The notes: generated from the letters alone by a model not told the origin. Shown: positions 2,744 through 11,172, counted from the first letter of the stretch. The stretch: 64,000 bases of DNA from Escherichia coli (GCF_003334815.1 NZ_QOWO01000003.1); one strand, 5' to 3'. A program made the numbers and translations.

Positions 2744-3290
<547 letters not shown>

Positions 3291-3319
3291 TCGGTCACGG
3301 TCCATTAATACGACTTTGA

Positions 3320-3781
<462 letters not shown>

Positions 3782-3801
3782 TTCGTTATTCAACGAGACG
3801 T

Positions 3802-3836
3802 AAAAACGCCGACCATTGGTCGGCGTTTTGCTTTTG
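3802..3836. terminator. Bidirectional Rho-independent terminator between rplI (+) and the convergent TRAP solute-binding gene (-)
   Basis: aaaaaCGCCGACCattgGGTCGGCGttttgctttt: GC-rich hairpin flanked by an A-tract upstream and a T-tract downstream, so it can terminate in both directions. Confidence 0.75.
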
Positions 3837-3892
3837 TAGCGAGCACTTGCAGATATCGATAAGGGCCACAATAAGCAGCCCTACGAAGATAA

Positions 3893-4864
3893 TTACTTAG
3901 CTGCCTGAATATCAGCCAGCATTGGGGCAAGGGCTGGGTTGTCCTTAGCGAAGTTTGCGTACATTGGCTGTACTTTCTCGATAAACGGAGCTTTATCTAC
4001 CTGGTAGACTTTCACGCCCATTTTATCCAGTTTTGCAAATTCTTGTTTCTCTTCCTCGCTCCACAAGTCTTTCATGTAGCTCATTGATTCTTTAGCTGCT
4101 TTTAATATAACTGCCTGATTTTCCTGGCTAAGTTTATCAAACGCAGCATTGCTCATCAGAACCACATCGGGAACCATAGTGTGTTCGTCAAGGCTGAAGG
4201 ATTTTGCCACTTCACCGTGACGCATGGTAGTCAGCGCCATCACGCTGTTTTCTGCCATATCGACCACACCCTGCTGTAAGGCTGTATACAACTCGCCGTA
4301 ATCCAGTGGCGTCGGGTTACCGCCCATGACTTTGATCATTTCAACTGCGCCAGGGCTTGGCTGGACACGGACTTTCATGCCTTTCAGATCGTCTGGTTTC
4401 AGTACTGGTTTATTGCCATAGAAACTGCGGGCGCCTCCATCATAAAAAGTCAGCCCGAAATAACCTTTGCTTTTCGTTGAGTCGAGGATTTTTCTCCCGA
4501 TATCGCCCTGCATGACCTGATAATAATGATCACGATCGCGGAACAAATAAGGCAGGCTAAATAATTTATAGGAATTTTCAAATGCTTCCATTTCTGCCGC
4601 ATTGGTTTTTACCAGGGGAATAGCGCCAGAACGAATCAGCTCCATTGTTTCTCGTTGAGTACCCAATGTTCCATTTGGATAAATACGAATAGTAATATCA
4701 CCGTTAGAGTACTCTTTGCTCTTTTTCGCAAAGAACTCCATCGCTTTATGAACAGGATGAGACTTATCCTGATTATGACTCAGTTTTAATGTCACTGCCC
4801 AGGACTGGCTTGCGGATAACATAAGAACAGCACCGATAATGCCAGCGGATACTTTTATTTTCAT
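3893..4864 (-). CDS. TRAP transporter periplasmic solute-binding protein, DctP family (substrate unknown)
   Basis: 323-aa ORF with signal peptide (MKIKVSAGIIGAVLMLSASQSWA); length and composition typical of DctP-type receptors; last gene of the 8-gene minus-strand operon, after the DctM and DctQ genes. Confidence 0.8.
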   Translation of the reverse strand: MKIKVSAGIIGAVLMLSASQSWAVTLKLSHNQDKSHPVHKAMEFFAKKSKEYSNGDITIRIYPNGTLGTQRETMELIRSGAIPLVKTNAAEMEAFENSYKLFSLPYLFRDRDHYYQVMQGDIGRKILDSTKSKGYFGLTFYDGGARSFYGNKPVLKPDDLKGMKVRVQPSPGAVEMIKVMGGNPTPLDYGELYTALQQGVVDMAENSVMALTTMRHGEVAKSFSLDEHTMVPDVVLMSNAAFDKLSQENQAVILKAAKESMSYMKDLWSEEEKQEFAKLDKMGVKVYQVDKAPFIEKVQPMYANFAKDNPALAPMLADIQAAK

Positions 4865-4916
4865 AGATGTTCCTTTTCTAATAAATATGGCGGCAGGTGC
4901 CGCCAGTGAATGCGCA

Positions 4917-6218
4917 TCAGTAGCCCAGTGCTCTTGGCAATGCCATACTGATTTGCGGAATATAGGTCACCATTGCCAGCACCAATACCATCACGGCATA
5001 GAATGGCAGCATAGGTTTGATAATTTTATTAATCGGTAATTTAGATACACTACAACCGACAAATAACACACTGCCTACAGGCGGAGTACAAATACCGATA
5101 CACATGTTCAGTACCATGACAATACCAAAGTGAATCGGGTCCATGCCCAGTTCGGTGACAACCGGTAAAAATATCGGCGTAAAAATCAGTACCGCCGGTG
5201 TCATATCCATAAAAGTGCCGATAATCAACAGGATAATATTGATAATAAGCAGGATTATTATTGGGTTGTCAGAAATAGTGTTAAGCAAATCGAGAATCAG
5301 GAAGGGAACGTCAGCGTTTGACATTGCCCATGACATACCCATCGAAGAACCAATTAATAACAAGACAATTGCAGTGGTAATAACGGATTCCAGAAATATT
5401 TTAGGTAAATCTTTAACTGAGATTTCACGATAAAGAACCAGTGCAAGGAAAAGGGTATAAATTACTGCAATTGCGGAGGCCTCTGTCGGGGTAAAAATAC
5501 CACTTAATACACCCCCCATAATTAAAATAATCAGGAAAATACTGGGGATAGCCATCCATATCGCAACGCCAGCCTGGCGTAAAGTCGGGCGTTCTGGCTT
5601 TGGATAACCGCGACGTACCGCGATAATACCGGCTATTACCATCAGTGCCAGACCCAGCAAAATTCCCGGAACATAACCCGCCAGGAACAGTGCGGCAATA
5701 GAAGTACCACCACTGACCAGTGAATAGACGATTAACGTATTACTTGGTGGAATAAGCAAACCCGTCGGGGCAGAGGCAACGTTAACCGCAGTACTGAATG
5801 CCGGGTCGTAACCCTCTTTAACCTGTTGCGGATGCATGACGCCGCCCATCGCAGCCGCCGAAGCCACGGCTGAACCAGAAATTGCCCCGAACAGCATATT
5901 GGCGAGAATATTACAGTGGGCAAGTGAGCCTGGCAGACGACCGCCGAGAATACGGGCAAAGTTGATTAATCGTCGCGCTATTCCTCCATGGTTCATAATG
6001 TTGCCAGACAAGATAAAAAATGGGATTGCCAACAACGTAAAACTATCTAACCCGGAGGCTAACTTTTGGGAAACCACACTCAATGCTGAGTTGAAATCGA
6101 GTTGTGTGGAAATTGATGCCAGTGTCGATAAACCAATGGCATAAACAATAGGTACACCTAATGCCAACATAAAAAAGAAGGCACCAAATAACACAATAAT
6201 CGGTAACCAGTAATCCAT
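4917..6218 (-). CDS. TRAP transporter large permease, DctM family
   Basis: 433-aa highly hydrophobic polytopic ORF of typical DctM size, immediately upstream of the DctP-like gene. Confidence 0.85.
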   Translation of the reverse strand: MDYWLPIIVLFGAFFFMLALGVPIVYAIGLSTLASISTQLDFNSALSVVSQKLASGLDSFTLLAIPFFILSGNIMNHGGIARRLINFARILGGRLPGSLAHCNILANMLFGAISGSAVASAAAMGGVMHPQQVKEGYDPAFSTAVNVASAPTGLLIPPSNTLIVYSLVSGGTSIAALFLAGYVPGILLGLALMVIAGIIAVRRGYPKPERPTLRQAGVAIWMAIPSIFLIILIMGGVLSGIFTPTEASAIAVIYTLFLALVLYREISVKDLPKIFLESVITTAIVLLLIGSSMGMSWAMSNADVPFLILDLLNTISDNPIIILLIINIILLIIGTFMDMTPAVLIFTPIFLPVVTELGMDPIHFGIVMVLNMCIGICTPPVGSVLFVGCSVSKLPINKIIKPMLPFYAVMVLVLAMVTYIPQISMALPRALGY

Positions 6219-6260
6219 AATTTCTCCATTCCTACTATGGTTGGTTGTTGTTTGTTATCT

Positions 6261-6761
6261 TTAGAGTGGTTGTTTAAGTTCGGTTAAAACCATATCTATG
6301 GTGTATATAATAATAAGTACACCACTAATCGGGATGCTCATATAGATATATCCCATTTGCCAGCCTAAAGCGGGCGAGGTCTGACCTGAATCGAATGTAT
6401 CCATCGTTAATAGCCCACCACCATATACCATAATGATGGTTGCGAAGATAATAACGATAATCTGAATACACAAAAATAAATGACGTCGGGCTTTTCCTTT
6501 CAGCATCATAGGTAGCAGGTCAATCGCCAGATGCCGGTTTTGCCCTGCGGTGTATGCCCCACCAAAAAGTCCAAGACAAATAAAGAGCAAACGGCTGAGT
6601 TCATCTGTAAAAATACTGGGACTAGTAAATATAAATCGTGCAGCCACCTGCCACGTCACACATGCCACGATGATCGCCAAAATGGTAATGTTCAATGCTG
6701 CAAGCAGAGCATTAATAGATCTAATTATATTTCGCATAGTGATTAACCTTTGCAATATCAT
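6261..6761 (-). CDS. TRAP transporter small permease, DctQ family
   Basis: 166-aa hydrophobic ORF with about 4 predicted TM segments, located upstream of the DctM gene; its ATG overlaps the stop of the upstream flavoprotein gene (ATGA). Confidence 0.7.
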   Translation of the reverse strand: MILQRLITMRNIIRSINALLAALNITILAIIVACVTWQVAARFIFTSPSIFTDELSRLLFICLGLFGGAYTAGQNRHLAIDLLPMMLKGKARRHLFLCIQIIVIIFATIIMVYGGGLLTMDTFDSGQTSPALGWQMGYIYMSIPISGVLIIIYTIDMVLTELKQPL

Positions 6762-8839
6762 TCATCCTGTGGCTGGTAAATTGTCCCATTAAGAAAACCA
6801 GGCCAGTTTTTTTCAAACCAAATACCTCGGATAATAGGAAACTCACGAACAGGTGTTTCTCTGACGTGAAAGATACCGTTGCAATAATGAATAAGTAGTT
6901 TATCTTTTTTATCCTCAGTACGCTCTGAACGAAAGCGCCAGGCATCACAAAAACCATTTCGTGTTTGCGGAATAGAATTTCCATCCCTGTCGAGAATAAT
7001 ACGTGCTCCCCGACTACCACCACCTGCGTCAATATAATGCGTTAATTGCGTTAATACGGCGGCAGAAGTCAGTGCCATATGCCGCCACATAAACAGCTCG
7101 GCAACTTCACCCACATGTTTGATAGCCAATCCATGCCGTTGGACAAATTCGCTCAATAGCAGGGCATCGCGAGTGGCGCGTCGGACTTTATCGGCATGGC
7201 AAATAAATCCCGCATGGTCAGACATTCGTGCCTGAATTTTTTCTCTCACAACCGACAACGGCATCCCGGTCCCGTTATCGTGCGCCTGAGTAATGATCTC
7301 TCTTATAGAAGCCAGTGTAGGAGCTACCAGCTGTGCTATATCTCCATCAATATTCCGCTTTTGCGTGCAACCAATAAAACGTGCCAGACGAACAGCAAAA
7401 ACCTGCCCGGCATTCAATGCTGCACCACCAGGGCGAGTGACGCCGTGTGTGCCAGCAACTTCCCCCACGGCGAAACAGCCGGGCAGGGAGGTTTGTCCCC
7501 AGATATCCACTTCAATGCCGCCATTCATATGCTGATTATTCATGGCAAACTGCAAAGGCTGTGTGGTGAGATCGTAACCGTGCATCTTATACAGCGAGAT
7601 AGACAGCGGATTCATTCGTTGCAGCCGTTCGATGGGCGATGGTGCCAGAGCGTCGTTATTTTCCAGATACGCGCGAACGTCGTCGTCCAGTCGATCTAAT
7701 GAGAACGGCAGGTCACCCGGCACCGCTTCAGGATTGCGATTGAAATCCATAAATACCTGACGCCCTGATTGCTGCTCTTGCGCTACTGCCATATCTAACA
7801 AGCTGGAGCCAAAATCCATCACCCGAGTGGCGTGGAACGGCCACTGATAGCCTTTACGGAAAATGTTTGAAGCCAGCTCCTGGGTGGTGCGATAGTAATC
7901 CGCGAGGAAGTTATACTCGTTACCCTCAGCATCCACGGAATAGATATACGGGATCACCTGTACATAGGTGCCGGATAAATTCCACGGAAACGTGCTACGC
8001 GGCGTGCCTATACCAAACTGGCTTTCGGTCAGATTGGTTAGCGTCAGGCCTTCCTCCAGCGCCAGCCCCAGCGAGCCAAAACATTTGTGTGGGTACACAC
8101 TGTCGCGATAAAGCTCGCCAGGCCCTCCTGTTGCCAGTACCACATTGGGCGCAGTCACAATTGCCAGCCCCCAAGGGTTATGGGCGCGATGACCGGTCGC
8201 GAGGATTGCCCCCGCAACACGGTCTTCGCCGTTTTCGTCACGCTGATGCAGCAGTTTAATCACTGTTGCACTGGTCAACACTGGAATGGCGAGGCGCTGT
8301 ACTTCTTCCAACAGCACTTTCACCATTAACCTTGAGGTACGCGGCCCACACGAGGTTGCACGCCCGGCTTCGTCATGGTCGGTTTGATAACGAAGAATCG
8401 CGCCATAGCGATCTTCCGGTAATTCCAGACCAAGATATTGCAACCCGCCAAGAGTGTGCAGAGAACCTACCGCTTCGACATAAGCGGTGTCGTGATCCAT
8501 CGCCCCACCGCTCGCCAGTGCCTCTGCCAGTTTGGTGAAGTTGTCGCCGTTGCCCGCGGTAGCGGCGGTAAACAGTGTCTGTTTATCGGAACCAGAACAT
8601 GCCGACGTCCCCATATATAACCCGGCGGTGGCGATCAGCACATTTTGCTGGCGGCGTTTAAGTTCCACAGCTGCACGCAGCCCGGCTGCACCACTGCCGA
8701 CTACCAGGGCATCTGTTTGCCAGAGTGGGTAATCAACACCGTCTACCGTGACAACCCATGCGGGCTCTGCCTGTGCAAAACCCTTTGGGAAAGTAACGTG
8801 CGTCAGCGCATCAAGGATGGTGTCATCAAGCTGACTCAT
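6758..8839 (-). CDS. FAD-dependent oxidoreductase of the fumarate reductase/succinate dehydrogenase/L-aspartate oxidase flavoprotein superfamily (stand-alone; substrate unknown)
   Basis: 693-aa ORF; dinucleotide-binding motif DALVVGSGAAGLRAAVEL after an N-terminal extension of about 40 aa; VLATGGPGELY and HMNGGIEVD...FAVGEVAGTHGVTRPGGAALNAGQVFAV resemble the SdhA/FrdA/NadB FAD and active-site segments; 4-nt ATGA overlaps at both ends. Confidence 0.65.
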   Translation of the reverse strand: MSQLDDTILDALTHVTFPKGFAQAEPAWVVTVDGVDYPLWQTDALVVGSGAAGLRAAVELKRRQQNVLIATAGLYMGTSACSGSDKQTLFTAATAGNGDNFTKLAEALASGGAMDHDTAYVEAVGSLHTLGGLQYLGLELPEDRYGAILRYQTDHDEAGRATSCGPRTSRLMVKVLLEEVQRLAIPVLTSATVIKLLHQRDENGEDRVAGAILATGHRAHNPWGLAIVTAPNVVLATGGPGELYRDSVYPHKCFGSLGLALEEGLTLTNLTESQFGIGTPRSTFPWNLSGTYVQVIPYIYSVDAEGNEYNFLADYYRTTQELASNIFRKGYQWPFHATRVMDFGSSLLDMAVAQEQQSGRQVFMDFNRNPEAVPGDLPFSLDRLDDDVRAYLENNDALAPSPIERLQRMNPLSISLYKMHGYDLTTQPLQFAMNNQHMNGGIEVDIWGQTSLPGCFAVGEVAGTHGVTRPGGAALNAGQVFAVRLARFIGCTQKRNIDGDIAQLVAPTLASIREIITQAHDNGTGMPLSVVREKIQARMSDHAGFICHADKVRRATRDALLLSEFVQRHGLAIKHVGEVAELFMWRHMALTSAAVLTQLTHYIDAGGGSRGARIILDRDGNSIPQTRNGFCDAWRFRSERTEDKKDKLLIHYCNGIFHVRETPVREFPIIRGIWFEKNWPGFLNGTIYQPQDE

Positions 8840-10377
8840 GCATCCTCCATCGGCGTAAACAGGCTACTTTCCATCAGGCGTGGGTGCTTGATAATTGGAC
8901 GGAAAGCCATATACGGCAGAATGTCGCGCTCAATCTCCACACCCGGCGCGATTTCAATTAATTCAACGCCTTCTGCCGTTAACTGGAATACTGCGCGTTC
9001 AGTGATATACAACACTTCCTGACCACTTTGCTGTGCGTAGGCGGCGCTAAAAGTGATTTTTTCCACCTTGGTAACCAGTTTAGGGATTTGACCTGACTGG
9101 GCGATATGCAAGCCATCTGGTGTTATATCGATCTTGCTGCCTTTAGCGTCGAACGTGCCGCAGAACACCACTTTACGGGCATTTTGCGCAATTTCGAGAA
9201 ATCCGCCGGGGCCAATCAGATTGCCATTGAGATGGGAGACGTTGACGTTACCGTACTGATCCATCTCTCCCATGCCGAGGAAGGTGATATCGATCCCTCC
9301 GCCACTGTAGAACTCAAATTGATCGAGTGATGGAATAATGGCATCGGCGTTGCGGGCGCAGCCGAAAAACGCATCATCCAGCATCATGCCGTTATGTACG
9401 CCTTGCTCGACGCTCAGCCATAAACTTTGGTAAGGAACGCCTTCGCGCAGCGCTACTCCTGGAATGCCGCCGGGAATACCAAAGCCAAAGTTGGTTGAAG
9501 CGCCAGCTACCAGTTCGCGTGCTGCCCGACGGGCAATCAGGCGACGTACCGGATGACTAACCAGTTCAATAGCGTCGTTAGAACTCAGACGGCGATGTTG
9601 GCCGCTGATGGTCAGGTCGTAACCGCCAAGATAGGTTTGTGGTTGTTCGCGGTGTTCAACGATGCCATCAACCAGAATGCCCGGTAATTTGACCCGGCGT
9701 GGTTCAATCGCGCCAGCTTCCAGCACATCGCGTACCTGTACGAACACTTTGCCGCCGCTGTTGTGTGCTGCCAGCGCCATGGAATAGCTATCCATATCAA
9801 TCGCTTCTTCTTCAAGGCTGACGTTGCCTCGAGGATCGGCATAAGTGCCACGCAAAATCGCGTAATCCACTTTGAAAGGGCGATAACGAAGTTTGGTTTC
9901 ACCGTCGATTTCAATCAGTTCTACCAGCTCGTCGGTAGTGCATTCATTCGACTTACCGCCGCCATTGCGTGGATCAACAAACGATCCCAGCCCAACGTGG
10001 GTAAAAAGCCCCGGACGTCCGGCGCCGATCTCCCGTAGCAGTGCCTGAATCACGCCACCAGGAAAGCAGTAGGCTTCAATCGTGTTATTTTTTACCAGCG
10101 CCTGCATTTTGGGCGACCAGGTAAAGTGCCCGGCAATAATGCGTTTGAGCATCTCTGCGTGCGCAAAACGATTAGTGCCTTTGCAGTCGCGATCGCCAAT
10201 ACCCAGCGAGTGGATTAGCGTCAGGTCGCGAGGGTGTCCGGTTTGCAGGAAACGCGCTTCAATAGCAGCCAGAATATGGTCGGCTTCCACCATACCGCCG
10301 CCGTTACCGCTAATAGCAATAGTCGCACCGTCCTGAATTTGCGCCGCCAGTGCCTCGGCGGTTGTTATCTTACGCAT
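8836..10377 (-). CDS. family I CoA-transferase, fused alpha/beta subunits (YdiF-like acyl-CoA:carboxylate CoA-transferase)
   Basis: 513-aa ORF with architecture and local similarity to E. coli YdiF as I recall it (N-terminal GNGGG... region; SVEQGVHNG segment at the position of the catalytic-Glu motif; C-terminal YITERAVF...LIEIAPGVE); AAGGAA RBS upstream. Confidence 0.75.
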   Translation of the reverse strand: MRKITTAEALAAQIQDGATIAISGNGGGMVEADHILAAIEARFLQTGHPRDLTLIHSLGIGDRDCKGTNRFAHAEMLKRIIAGHFTWSPKMQALVKNNTIEAYCFPGGVIQALLREIGAGRPGLFTHVGLGSFVDPRNGGGKSNECTTDELVELIEIDGETKLRYRPFKVDYAILRGTYADPRGNVSLEEEAIDMDSYSMALAAHNSGGKVFVQVRDVLEAGAIEPRRVKLPGILVDGIVEHREQPQTYLGGYDLTISGQHRRLSSNDAIELVSHPVRRLIARRAARELVAGASTNFGFGIPGGIPGVALREGVPYQSLWLSVEQGVHNGMMLDDAFFGCARNADAIIPSLDQFEFYSGGGIDITFLGMGEMDQYGNVNVSHLNGNLIGPGGFLEIAQNARKVVFCGTFDAKGSKIDITPDGLHIAQSGQIPKLVTKVEKITFSAAYAQQSGQEVLYITERAVFQLTAEGVELIEIAPGVEIERDILPYMAFRPIIKHPRLMESSLFTPMEDA

Positions 10378-10386
10378 ACAATTTCC

Positions 10387-11169
10387 TTATTGATTATGGA
10401 AGCTCACGCTACTTTTTTCGGCAAAGGCGCGCGTCGCCTGCTGGCAATCCTGAGTGGCAGACATTAATCCGGCCAGTAGCTGGTGCGGGTAATCGGCATG
10501 TTTATTTTCCAGTGCCAGAATCAGTTGCTTAATATGCGCCAGTGCCACCGGGCCGCATTTTTCCAGCTGCGCTAACTGGTTCGCCATCCAGCTTTCCACC
10601 TGTTCTTTTTCTACCACTTCATCAATTAAATTCGCCGCCTGGGCTTCCTGCGCCGTCAGGCGTTTACCCAGCATCAGCATCTGGCGACCGACCACCGGAC
10701 CAACCTGATTAAGCACACGTTCAATGCCCATCCAGCCAGGCACCATGCCGAGCATCACTTCCGGGTTAGAGAATTTCGCGCCGGGGCGGGCAATACGAAT
10801 ATCGCAGCACAAGGCCAGTTCAATACCACCGCCGATGGTATGACCGTTGAGATTCGCAACGGTTAATTGGGGTAAGTTTCGCAGGCGATTAAAAACGTCA
10901 TTACCGCGTTTAATCCATTTTCTGCCCATATCTAATGGCGAATAGGCCGACCACGATTTAATATCGCCGCCCGCACAAAAGAATTTATCGCCGGTTGCCG
11001 TTAATTCGACTAATCGTAATGTGGTGTCGTTTTCAATTTCATTTAAATAATGGTCGAGAGATTCGATCATCTCTTCGTTAATAGCATGACATTTATCTTC
11101 ACGGTTCAATGTCAGGCGGCAGGAAGCCGCCGCTCTGCTGAACAGAACGGGTTGGTCACTCATGATCAT
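10387..11169 (-). CDS. enoyl-CoA hydratase/isomerase (crotonase superfamily)
   Basis: 260-aa ORF; crotonase signature LNGHTIGGGIELALCCD followed by FSNPEVMLGMVPG, with Glu residues at both canonical catalytic positions. Confidence 0.8.
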   Translation of the reverse strand: MIMSDQPVLFSRAAASCRLTLNREDKCHAINEEMIESLDHYLNEIENDTTLRLVELTATGDKFFCAGGDIKSWSAYSPLDMGRKWIKRGNDVFNRLRNLPQLTVANLNGHTIGGGIELALCCDIRIARPGAKFSNPEVMLGMVPGWMGIERVLNQVGPVVGRQMLMLGKRLTAQEAQAANLIDEVVEKEQVESWMANQLAQLEKCGPVALAHIKQLILALENKHADYPHQLLAGLMSATQDCQQATRAFAEKSSVSFHNQ

Positions 11170-11172
11170 TCC

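What the first reader, a model, noticed from the sequence alone, without database searches (positions are those of the whole stretch)
6758..10377. Consecutive ATGA stop/start overlaps suggest translational coupling across the enzyme-transporter junction
The CoA-transferase stop overlaps the flavoprotein start (8836..8839), and the flavoprotein stop overlaps the DctQ start (6758..6761), both as ATGA. The other junctions in the operon are 3-9 bp. The flavoprotein and the transporter are therefore probably made in fixed stoichiometry from one mRNA, supporting the idea that the imported substrate is the one processed by these enzymes rather than the transporter being an unrelated passenger.
Basis: seen in the sequence. 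Interest (0 to 1): 0.3.

Follow-up and report, generated by a model that had tools for sequence, protein, structure and literature searches.

The report
One real gene overlap, one illusory
In this E. coli operon, the 4-base overlap between the CoA-transferase and flavoprotein genes is real, conserved and of a very common kind. The supposed overlap between the flavoprotein and the transporter gene is probably a coincidence, because the transporter gene most likely starts 20 bases further on and belongs to a swappable transporter cassette.

Summary
The window is E. coli chromosome between rplI and ytfB. It carries a minus-strand, TetR-flanked operon: SDR, TIM-barrel, enoyl-CoA hydratase, CoA-transferase, FAD oxidoreductase, DctQ, DctM, DctP.

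- **First overlap (8839..8836):** real. The CoA-transferase stop overlaps the only possible flavoprotein start. A GGAGG lies 4 nt upstream. The junction is conserved in all 13 related loci examined.
- **Second overlap (6761..6758):** the letters are there, but this ATG is probably not the DctQ start. RefSeq starts DctQ at 6737. In four other TRAP-type loci DctQ begins at the homologous Met, 12 to 214 nt after the flavoprotein stop. In a second E. coli allele the stop is TAA, so the upstream codon is ATA.
- **Other junctions:** DctQ-DctM is 42 nt and DctM-DctP is 52 nt, not 3-9.
- **Chance:** -4 overlaps are the commonest junction in E. coli, so the pattern is ordinary.
- **Functional link:** supported, but by different evidence. 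Related bacteria and 1673 E. coli genomes carry an MFS acid transporter in the same slot; 1446 carry TRAP. The swap's left breakpoint lies inside the flavoprotein gene (about 7109-7073).

Fixed flavoprotein:transporter stoichiometry is not supported.

The parts
13029..13676 (+). Divergent TetR/AcrR-family regulator (RefSeq start; the longest ORF starts at TTG 13005). Its 3' end overlaps the end of the convergent ytfB gene.
   Evidence: Present next to the cassette in the 12 loci whose contig reaches that far.
12885..12906 (-). Conserved palindrome ATCAACCAACCAGATGGTTGAT, about 70 nt upstream of the first gene. Candidate TetR operator in the single upstream control region.
   Evidence: Flagged as a hairpin. 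CAACCAACyAGATGGTTGATCTTT is nearly invariant in 11 loci, while the surrounding spacer diverges. The operator role is inferred.
12025..12816 (-). SDR oxidoreductase (NF009386, '3-ketoacyl-ACP reductase'), first gene of the operon.
11173..12015 (-). Xylose-isomerase-like TIM-barrel protein (PF01261, AP_endonuc_2). 9-nt spacer from the SDR gene.
   Evidence: Nearest solved structures are 3qc0 and 3ju2, both uncharacterised.
10387..11163 (-). Enoyl-CoA hydratase/isomerase family protein.
8836..10377 (-). Family I acyl-CoA:acetate/3-ketoacid CoA-transferase, 513 aa.
8836..8848 (-). Genuine -4 junction: GGAGG (8848..8844), a 4-nt spacer, then ATGA (8839..8836). This is the CoA-transferase stop overlapping the flavoprotein start.
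   Evidence: conserved in 10 loci; SD duplex -9.3 kcal/mol. Read directly, there is no other in-frame ATG/GTG/TTG before the GSGAAG FAD-binding motif at residues 48-53.
6758..8839 (-). FAD-dependent oxidoreductase (PF00890; SdhA/NadB/TfrA-like), 693 aa. The last ~105 codons (from about 7109-7073) are of different origin from the rest.
7073..7109 (.). Left recombination breakpoint of the transporter swap. Upstream, the window is ~98% identical to an MFS-type E. coli locus. Downstream it is ~60% identical, and GC falls from ~0.54 to ~0.42.
6758..6761 (-). Second ATGA. TGA is the true flavoprotein stop. The ATG is an in-frame upstream codon of the DctQ frame and is probably not the start.
6738..6757 (-). 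20-nt spacer TATTGCAAAGGTTAATCACT, with a weak SD (AAAGG 6751..6747) 9 nt before ATG 6737.
   Evidence: The spacer is 20/20 identical in the second E. coli TRAP allele (L008), although the flanking flavoprotein 3' end is only 63% identical and dctQ 83%.
6261..6737 (-). TRAP small permease DctQ, 158 aa from the conserved start (166 aa if 6761 were used).
4917..6218 (-). TRAP large permease DctM, 433 aa. 42-nt spacer from dctQ; own SD (GGAG).
4888..4905 (-). GC-rich hairpin (7 bp, about -14 kcal/mol) followed by AUAUUUAUU, in the dctM-dctP spacer. Possible attenuator or RNA-stability element.
   Evidence: Present in L008 but not in L006, L007 or L009.
3893..4864 (-). TRAP solute-binding protein DctP, 323 aa with a signal peptide. 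52-nt spacer from dctM; own SD (AAGGA).
3803..3836 (.). Right breakpoint of the swap (about 3836) and the bidirectional terminator shared with rplI (3803..3829).

Best explanation
This is an eight-gene catabolic operon in the variable rplI-ytfB region of E. coli. It is probably transcribed from one promoter region that carries a conserved palindrome, next to a divergent TetR gene.

**Translation along the mRNA.**
- The first three junctions are 9-nt spacers with their own ribosome-binding sites. This is a common E. coli arrangement.
- The CoA-transferase and flavoprotein genes share a genuine, conserved ATGA overlap with a strong GGAGG inside the end of the upstream gene. The flavoprotein is therefore probably translated largely by termination-reinitiation (inferred).
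- The flavoprotein then stops at TGA 6760..6758. DctQ is started afresh 20 nt downstream at ATG 6737, from a weak AAAGG site.
- DctM and DctP start from their own sites after 42-nt and 52-nt spacers.
- The ATG at 6761 exists only because the stop is TGA preceded by A. At most it is a minor extra start.

**The transporter genes are an interchangeable module.** The segment from about 7100 (inside the flavoprotein gene) to about 3836 (the rplI terminator) replaced, or was replaced by, an MFS acid transporter through homologous recombination. The transporter is therefore tied to the pathway by function and co-transcription, not by translational coupling or stoichiometry.

**Likely function (inferred).** Uptake of an unidentified hydroxy-carboxylate or sugar-acid-like compound, followed by CoA-dependent processing.
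For: **Shown in sequence.**
- Both ATGA strings and all spacers.
- RefSeq gene starts.
- CoA-transferase/flavoprotein overlap plus GGAGG conserved in 10 aligned loci, and the same overlap in the gene calls of 3 more.
- SD energies: -9.3 kcal/mol for the flavoprotein, against about -4 for either DctQ candidate. The spacing suits 6737 (7-9 nt) and is poor for 6761 (2-3 nt).
- DctQ starts MR(K/Q/N)xI(K/R)xIN at the homologous ATG in L006, L007, L008 and L009. The gaps are 214, 12, 20 and 90 nt. L008 has ATA/TAA in place of ATG/TGA.
- The YiaM profile begins aligning at residue 21 of the long form.
- No significant RNA structure at the junction (z = +1.15).
- No promoter-like or terminator-like hit on the minus strand between the flavoprotein and dctQ.

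**Transporter swap.**
- MFS in L002-L005, L010 and L013-L015; TRAP in L006-L009 and the window.
- 1446 TRAP-type and 1673 MFS-type among 5426 complete E. coli genomes.
- Breakpoints located; GC shift.
- The MFS belongs to the D-galactonate/ACS transporter family.

**Literature.** -4 is the modal junction. +9 to +12 nt is a known E. coli peak, mostly on polycistronic transcripts. Reinitiation collapses with distance (PMC10666635; PMC6728339).
Against: - ATG 6761 is present in 1445 of about 1450 TRAP-type E. coli genomes, so it is available to ribosomes. Many GenBank and Prodigal-type annotations call the 166-aa form.
- Those genomes are at least 95% (mostly at least 99%) identical here, so this is one allele counted many times, not independent conservation.
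- The SD before 6737 is weak (-3.8 kcal/mol). Some help from ribosomes terminating 20 nt upstream cannot be excluded.
- No expression data of any kind were available. Transcript structure, start sites and coupling are all inferred.
- The consensus promoter scan did not find the main promoter either, so its silence about internal promoters is weak evidence.
Confidence: 0.75

Rival explanations
1. Both ATGA overlaps are functional. DctQ starts at 6761, and ribosomes finishing the flavoprotein reinitiate on it. Enzyme and transporter are therefore made in a fixed ratio.
For: - The ATGA is in the sequence.
- ATG 6761 is in frame with DctQ with no intervening stop, and an AGGA lies just upstream.
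- The allele is near-universal among TRAP-type E. coli.
- The 166-aa form is widely annotated.
- 4 of 5 tested E. coli -4 pairs were coupled (PMC6728339).
Against: - The 8-codon extension has no counterpart in the four other TRAP-type loci, and the ATG is ATA in L008.
- SD spacing is only 2-3 nt.
- RefSeq chooses 6737.
- The spacer and the first ~26 nt after 6737 are conserved between two otherwise diverged alleles, as expected of a real initiation region.
- The junction width is unconstrained across lineages, at 12-214 nt.
- A soluble flavoenzyme and a membrane subunit have no evident need for fixed stoichiometry (inference).
Confidence: 0.12
2. The TRAP genes are expressed at least partly from their own promoter inside the AT-rich 3' end of the flavoprotein gene, or are otherwise regulated separately from the enzymes. 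The hairpin before dctP further uncouples dctP.
For: - The imported segment is AT-rich (GC ~0.41), a composition that often creates promoter-like sites.
- Klebsiella-type loci have 90-214 nt between the flavoprotein gene and dctQ, enough room for a promoter.
- A terminator-like hairpin lies at 4905..4888.
Against: - No minus-strand promoter-like hit between 7100 and 6261. Overall counts of promoter-like and terminator-like hits are at shuffle expectation: 14 versus 14.4, and 16 versus 11 +/- 4.
- The window has only a 20-nt spacer.
- The hairpin is not conserved in L006, L007 or L009.
- An extra promoter would not contradict co-transcription.
Confidence: 0.13

Closest known systems
E. coli -4 (ATGA) overlapping gene pairs coupled by termination-reinitiation (hyfH-hyfI, astD-astB, ydbH-ynbE, menD-menH; Huber et al. 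2019, PMC6728339)
   Same: The CoA-transferase/flavoprotein junction has the same anatomy: ATGA with an SD motif inside the 3' end of the upstream gene.
   Different: Coupling is untested here. The same study found that one of five pairs (bioB-bioF) was not coupled despite the overlap. The flavoprotein/DctQ 'overlap' fails the requirement that the overlapped ATG be the real start.
E. coli operon junctions of +9 to +12 nt (203 pairs, mostly on polycistronic transcripts; Huber et al. 2023, PMC10666635)
   Same: Three junctions of this operon are exactly 9 nt, each with an SD in or just before the spacer.
   Different: None of note. This shows that the operon's spacing pattern is typical for E. 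coli.
Catabolic operons that include their own TRAP transporter, such as E. coli yiaK-S with YiaMNO (2,3-diketo-L-gulonate). Named from the NCBIfam hits; the operon context is from my own knowledge.
   Same: DctQ and DctM hit the YiaM and YiaN models. The transporter genes are co-oriented with the enzymes for a carboxylate substrate.
   Different: - Scores are far below the YiaM/YiaN equivalog cut-offs (36 versus 260, and 291 versus 800), so this is a different system.
- The gene order is Q-M-P at the end of the operon.
- The enzymes are CoA-dependent.
- The transporter slot alternates with an MFS.

Membership tests
-4 stop/start overlap pair (candidate for termination-reinitiation): CoA-transferase/flavoprotein | The upstream stop codon shares bases with the downstream start codon (ATGA). 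| tested here: met
   TGA 8838..8836 and ATG 8839..8837. RefSeq annotates the same.
-4 stop/start overlap pair: CoA-transferase/flavoprotein | The overlapped ATG is the real start of the downstream gene. | tested here: met
   M1 and S2 are invariant in 14 orthologues. The junction is conserved in 10 loci. There is no other in-frame start codon before the FAD-binding GSGAAG motif (read).
-4 stop/start overlap pair: CoA-transferase/flavoprotein | An SD motif lies inside the 3' end of the upstream gene. | tested here: met
   GGAGG at 8848..8844, duplex -9.3 kcal/mol. Conserved.
-4 stop/start overlap pair: CoA-transferase/flavoprotein | Downstream translation depends on upstream translation. | not testable with these tools
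   This needs reporter fusions with premature stop codons.
-4 stop/start overlap pair: flavoprotein/DctQ | The upstream stop codon shares bases with an ATG in the downstream frame. | tested here: met
   ATGA at 6761..6758. Present in 1445 E. coli genomes.
-4 stop/start overlap pair: flavoprotein/DctQ | The overlapped ATG is the real start of the downstream gene. | tested here: not met
   - All four other TRAP-type loci start at the Met homologous to 6737.
- L008 has ATA at the 6761 position.
- The gaps are 12-214 nt.
- RefSeq uses 6737.

This is comparative evidence, not experimental.
-4 stop/start overlap pair: flavoprotein/DctQ | An SD motif at a workable distance from the overlapped ATG. 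| tested here: inconclusive
   AGGA, -4.1 kcal/mol, only 2-3 nt from ATG 6761. AAAGG, -3.8 kcal/mol, 7-9 nt from ATG 6737.
Tripartite TRAP transporter (DctP-type) | A small permease (DctQ), a large permease (DctM) and a periplasmic binding protein (DctP) are encoded together. | tested here: met
   TIGR00786 (458 bits against a cut-off of 268) and TIGR00787/NF037995, both above cut-off. DctQ is identified by PF04290 in the orthologues and by a YiaM hit.
Single polycistronic operon | No terminator or promoter between the genes, and one transcript. | tested here: inconclusive
   The consensus scans show nothing between the enzyme and transporter genes, and one hairpin before dctP. Transcripts cannot be observed with these tools.

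The most novel reading that the evidence does not exclude
The more interesting feature is not the ATGA. This uncharacterised CoA-dependent acid-catabolic operon exists in E. coli as two common alleles that differ only in the uptake system: a TRAP DctQMP transporter or an unrelated ACS-family MFS transporter. The alleles were exchanged by homologous recombination, with one crossover inside the flavoprotein gene and the other at the rplI terminator. In one Salmonella variant the crotonase-type hydratase is likewise replaced by a MaoC-type one. If both transporters carry the same still-unknown substrate, the locus is a natural experiment in non-homologous transporter replacement within a species.
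Probability: 0.7. Interest if true: 0.35.

Novelty: new member of a known kind. Interest (0 to 1): 0.12.

Why it matters
It matters little as a mechanism. A 4-base overlap with an internal ribosome-binding site is the commonest gene junction in E. coli.

There are two practical points.
- DctQ of this widespread allele is annotated with two different starts in public databases (158 and 166 aa). Comparative evidence favours the shorter form.
- Using an ATGA seen in the longest ORF as evidence of coupling or functional linkage can mislead. Here the sound evidence for linkage is the alternation of two unrelated acid importers in the same operon slot. That alternation also marks the pathway as an uncharacterised acid-utilisation trait, present in roughly 58% of complete E. 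coli genomes.

Tried and rejected
- **RNA structure that could hide the DctQ start and impose coupling.** The fold of 6830..6700 is no more stable than shuffles. Rejected.
- **Known RNA elements in or between the genes.** The Rfam E-value scan of 3000..13800 gave only one sub-threshold sRNA hit near the terminator. Rejected.
- **Internal promoters or terminators.** The consensus scan found none at the enzyme-transporter junction, and totals are at shuffle expectation.
- **Literature on the operon.** Searches for ytfA/yjfZ, for the PDB and locus names of the TIM-barrel homologues, and for the gene-product combination returned nothing relevant.
- **Substrate identification from solved structures.**
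  - DctP's best PDB relatives are structural-genomics TRAP binding proteins (4ovr, 4x8r, 4n8y). I recall these as uronate-binding, but the table gives no ligands.
  - The TIM-barrel relatives are uncharacterised.
  - The flavoprotein is only distantly NadB/SdhA-like.
  - No substrate could be assigned.
- **CoA-transferase/flavoprotein fusion proteins in the database** (P0002 and similar). These might have hinted at a natural fusion at the ATGA. P0002 is instead an internal in-frame deletion allele. The junctions of P0034 and P0086 were not resolved.
- **Large scan not run.** The genome-contig scan was not used, because 13 loci from at least five genera already settled the question.


Full report
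**What the window is**

The 9.9-kb region matches E. coli chromosomes at up to 100% identity. At least 80% of it is present in 1447 of 5426 complete genomes. It lies between rplI and ytfB.

On the minus strand the genes are as follows:

| Gene | Coordinates | Notes |
|---|---|---|
| SDR | 12816..12025 | first gene |
| Xylose-isomerase-like TIM-barrel protein | 12015..11173 | |
| Enoyl-CoA hydratase | 11163..10387 | RefSeq start |
| Family I CoA-transferase | 10377..8836 | 513 aa |
| FAD-dependent oxidoreductase | 8839..6758 | SdhA/NadB type, 693 aa |
| TRAP small permease DctQ | ..6261 | start discussed below |
| TRAP large permease DctM | 6218..4917 | |
| TRAP binding protein DctP | 4864..3893 | |

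A TetR-family gene is divergent upstream (13029..13676). A bidirectional terminator shared with rplI closes the block (3803..3829).

**Checking the observation**

The first one (8839..8836) joins the CoA-transferase stop to the flavoprotein start.
- RefSeq annotates it the same way.
- No other in-frame ATG, GTG or TTG lies before the GSGAAG dinucleotide-binding motif at residues 48-53 (read).
- M1 and S2 are invariant in 14 orthologues.
- The sequence ATGGAGGxxGCATGAGCC is conserved in ten loci from Escherichia, Salmonella, Klebsiella and unnamed enterobacterial contigs.
- The gene calls of three more loci show the same overlap.
- The GGAGG (8848..8844) pairs with the 16S rRNA tail at -9.3 kcal/mol, the strongest site in the operon.

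The second string (6761..6758) is different. The TGA is the real flavoprotein stop, but ATG 6761 is only the first possible start of the DctQ frame.
- RefSeq starts DctQ at ATG 6737 (158 aa), which leaves a 20-nt spacer.
- Both the 158-aa and 166-aa forms circulate in databases.

DctQ-DctM is 42 nt and DctM-DctP is 52 nt.

**Which DctQ start is real**

I fetched related loci through orthologues of the flavoprotein. Four of them carry TRAP genes after the flavoprotein gene. In all four, DctQ begins MR(K/Q/N)xI(K/R)xIN at the ATG homologous to 6737, and no conserved extension lies upstream.

| Locus | Source | Gap from flavoprotein stop to DctQ start |
|---|---|---|
| L006 | Klebsiella sp. | 214 nt |
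| L009 | metagenome | 90 nt |
| L008 | second E. coli allele | 20 nt |
| L007 | enterobacterial contig | 12 nt |

L008 is the telling case. Its spacer TATTGCAAAGGTTAATCACT is identical to the window's. Its stop is TAA, so the codon at the 6761 position is ATA. The window's upstream ATG is therefore a by-product of using TGA after an A.

That 20-nt spacer and the first ~26 nt of dctQ are conserved between the two E. coli alleles. The flanking flavoprotein 3' end is only 63% identical and dctQ overall 83%. This pattern fits a real initiation region at 6737.

The SD-like sites are weak for both candidates, about -4 kcal/mol. The spacing is 7-9 nt for 6737 and only 2-3 nt for 6761. The YiaM profile starts to align at residue 21 of the long form.

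The ATGA allele is in 1445 E. coli genomes and the TAA allele in 5. I measured this with 55-nt queries centred on the variable base, so that every 28-mer seed contains it. Those 1445 genomes share one near-identical allele, so this is not independent conservation.

**Is it more than chance**

No. In E. coli, -4 is the commonest junction of unidirectional pairs. Junctions from -8 to +6 nt make up 707 of 2987 pairs, and +9 to +12 nt is a second small peak of 203 pairs, nearly all on polycistronic transcripts (PMC10666635).

I also hand-counted the RefSeq table of a strain that is 99.98% identical over window 1-31076. Of 34 unidirectional neighbour pairs, 2 are -4 overlaps (tamA/tamB and CoA-transferase/flavoprotein), one is -1 and one is -14. 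The second half of the window matched that strain less well in register (92%), probably because of indels.

My rough estimate is that a pair with a short spacer has about a 2% chance of showing an in-frame, open ATG that overlaps the upstream stop. Dozens of such coincidences are therefore expected per genome (inference).

**Coupling**

For the CoA-transferase/flavoprotein pair, the anatomy matches pairs shown to be coupled by termination-reinitiation in E. coli. Four of five tested pairs were coupled (PMC6728339). Coupling here is plausible but inferred.

For flavoprotein/DctQ with a 20-nt spacer, the published distance dependence argues against efficient reinitiation. The abstract states that about 20 nt almost abolishes coupling. 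The E. coli data show 80-100% loss at 38 nt and variable loss at 2-14 nt.

No RNA structure is predicted that would mask the DctQ start (z = +1.15).

**The transporter is a swappable module**

Eight loci carry a 425/426-aa MFS transporter instead of DctQMP, 50-127 nt after the flavoprotein gene:
- E. albertii (L002), E. marmotae (L003), K. oxytoca (L004) and S. enterica (L005)
- an E. coli strain (L010) and C. tructae (L013)
- a Salmonella variant (L014) and one short contig (L015)

All but the short contig L015 show the same TetR-plus-enzyme cassette at the same chromosomal site. In L014 the hydratase gene is missing. The MFS belongs to the D-galactonate/anion:cation symporter family.

Among complete E. 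coli genomes, 1446 have the TRAP genes and 1673 the MFS gene. The rest have neither.

The window is ~98% identical to the MFS-type E. coli locus from the TetR gene down to about 7109. Mismatches become dense from 7073 onward, and identity falls to ~60%. This coincides with a GC drop from ~0.54 to ~0.42. It also coincides with the point where the protein diverges from the MFS-type allele, just after GGGSRGAR at about residue 613. Homology resumes at the rplI terminator, at about 3836.

The TRAP genes therefore arrived together with the last ~105 codons of an orthologous flavoprotein gene. The donor operon already had flavoprotein-DctQMP adjacency.

Both transporter types import carboxylates, which fits a pathway that begins with a CoA-transferase (inference).

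**Transcription**

The consensus scan finds no minus-strand promoter-like site between 7100 and 6261, and no terminator-like site between the flavoprotein and dctQ. Totals are at shuffle expectation. The scan is crude and did not detect the main promoter either.

Upstream of the first gene, the palindrome CAACCAACyAGATGGTTGATCTTT (12906..12885) is almost invariant in 11 loci, within an otherwise diverging spacer. It is a good candidate for the TetR operator.

A 7-bp GC hairpin followed by AUAUUUAUU lies between dctM and dctP (4905..4888, about -14 kcal/mol). It is shared with L008 but absent from the Klebsiella-type loci. Its role is open.

**Function**

No paper in the held library describes the operon. 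Solved-structure relatives do not identify a substrate. I recall DctP's nearest PDB relatives as uronate binders, but that is a lead from memory, not a test.

My working model is uptake of a hydroxy-carboxylate, activation by the CoA-transferase, then hydratase, SDR, TIM-barrel and flavoprotein steps. This is inferred from family membership only.

**Verdict**

One ordinary, genuine and conserved overlap. One coincidental ATGA that is probably not a start. The functional-link conclusion is correct but was reached for the wrong reason. The stoichiometry claim is unsupported. The transporter swap is the only mildly noteworthy feature.

Noticed in passing
window 3836..7109; loci L002-L010, L013-L015: The slot after the flavoprotein gene holds either TRAP DctQMP or an unrelated ACS-family MFS transporter. 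E. coli itself is polymorphic: 1446 TRAP-type, 1673 MFS-type, and about 2300 with neither among 5426 genomes. The breakpoints lie inside the flavoprotein gene and at the rplI terminator.
   Followed up: yes
window 12885..12906 (minus strand): The palindrome ATCAACCAACCAGATGGTTGAT, in the TetR/SDR intergenic region, is almost invariant across 11 loci from several genera. It is probably the operator of the adjacent TetR regulator.
   Followed up: partly
window 4888..4905 (minus strand): A GC-rich hairpin followed by a U-rich stretch lies between dctM and dctP. It is shared with the second E. coli TRAP allele and absent in the Klebsiella-type loci. It could attenuate or stabilise the transcript before the binding-protein gene.
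   Followed up: partly
L014 (Salmonella contig, Logan SRR5711988) 4886..4962 and 10025..10504: In this variant the crotonase-type enoyl-CoA hydratase gene is missing from its usual place, and a MaoC-type dehydratase gene follows the MFS gene. This looks like a second non-homologous replacement within the same pathway.
   Followed up: no
L006 8598..8811 (Klebsiella sp. RHBSTW-00484): The flavoprotein-dctQ spacer is 214 nt. It contains a ~127-nt imperfect palindrome (27-nt outer arms, 14-nt inner arms) that is absent from the otherwise similar 90-nt spacer of L009. From memory it resembles an ERIC/IRU intergenic repeat.
   Followed up: partly
window 6758..7073; alignment A1 columns ~615-700: The C-terminal ~80-100 residues of the flavoprotein are much more divergent between lineages than the rest (57-63% nucleotide identity, even between the two E. 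coli TRAP alleles). A few motifs are kept (GGGSRGAR, WRFR, FEKNWP). Protein length varies from 689 to 698 aa.
   Followed up: partly
E. coli genomes H1-H4, H13, H17, H27, H31; L008 10456..11430; protein P0002: There are signs of decay in some strains:
- IS1 insertions in the TRAP or MFS genes (named for H13, H17, H27 and H31). H1-H4 carry an uncharacterised ~780-bp insertion somewhere in the region.
- A frameshifted dctP in L008.
- An in-frame deletion allele that fuses CoA-transferase residues 1 to ~385 to the flavoprotein.
   Followed up: partly
window 13660..13676: The convergent TetR gene and ytfB overlap by 17 nt at their 3' ends. The same arrangement appears in all related loci whose contig reaches that far.
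   Followed up: no
window 11163..11169 and 12816..12858: Two further start-site ambiguities come from longest-ORF reading:
- The hydratase has ATG 11169 versus the RefSeq ATG 11163. This changes that junction from 3 nt to 9 nt.
- The SDR has TTG 12858 versus the RefSeq ATG 12816.
   Followed up: partly
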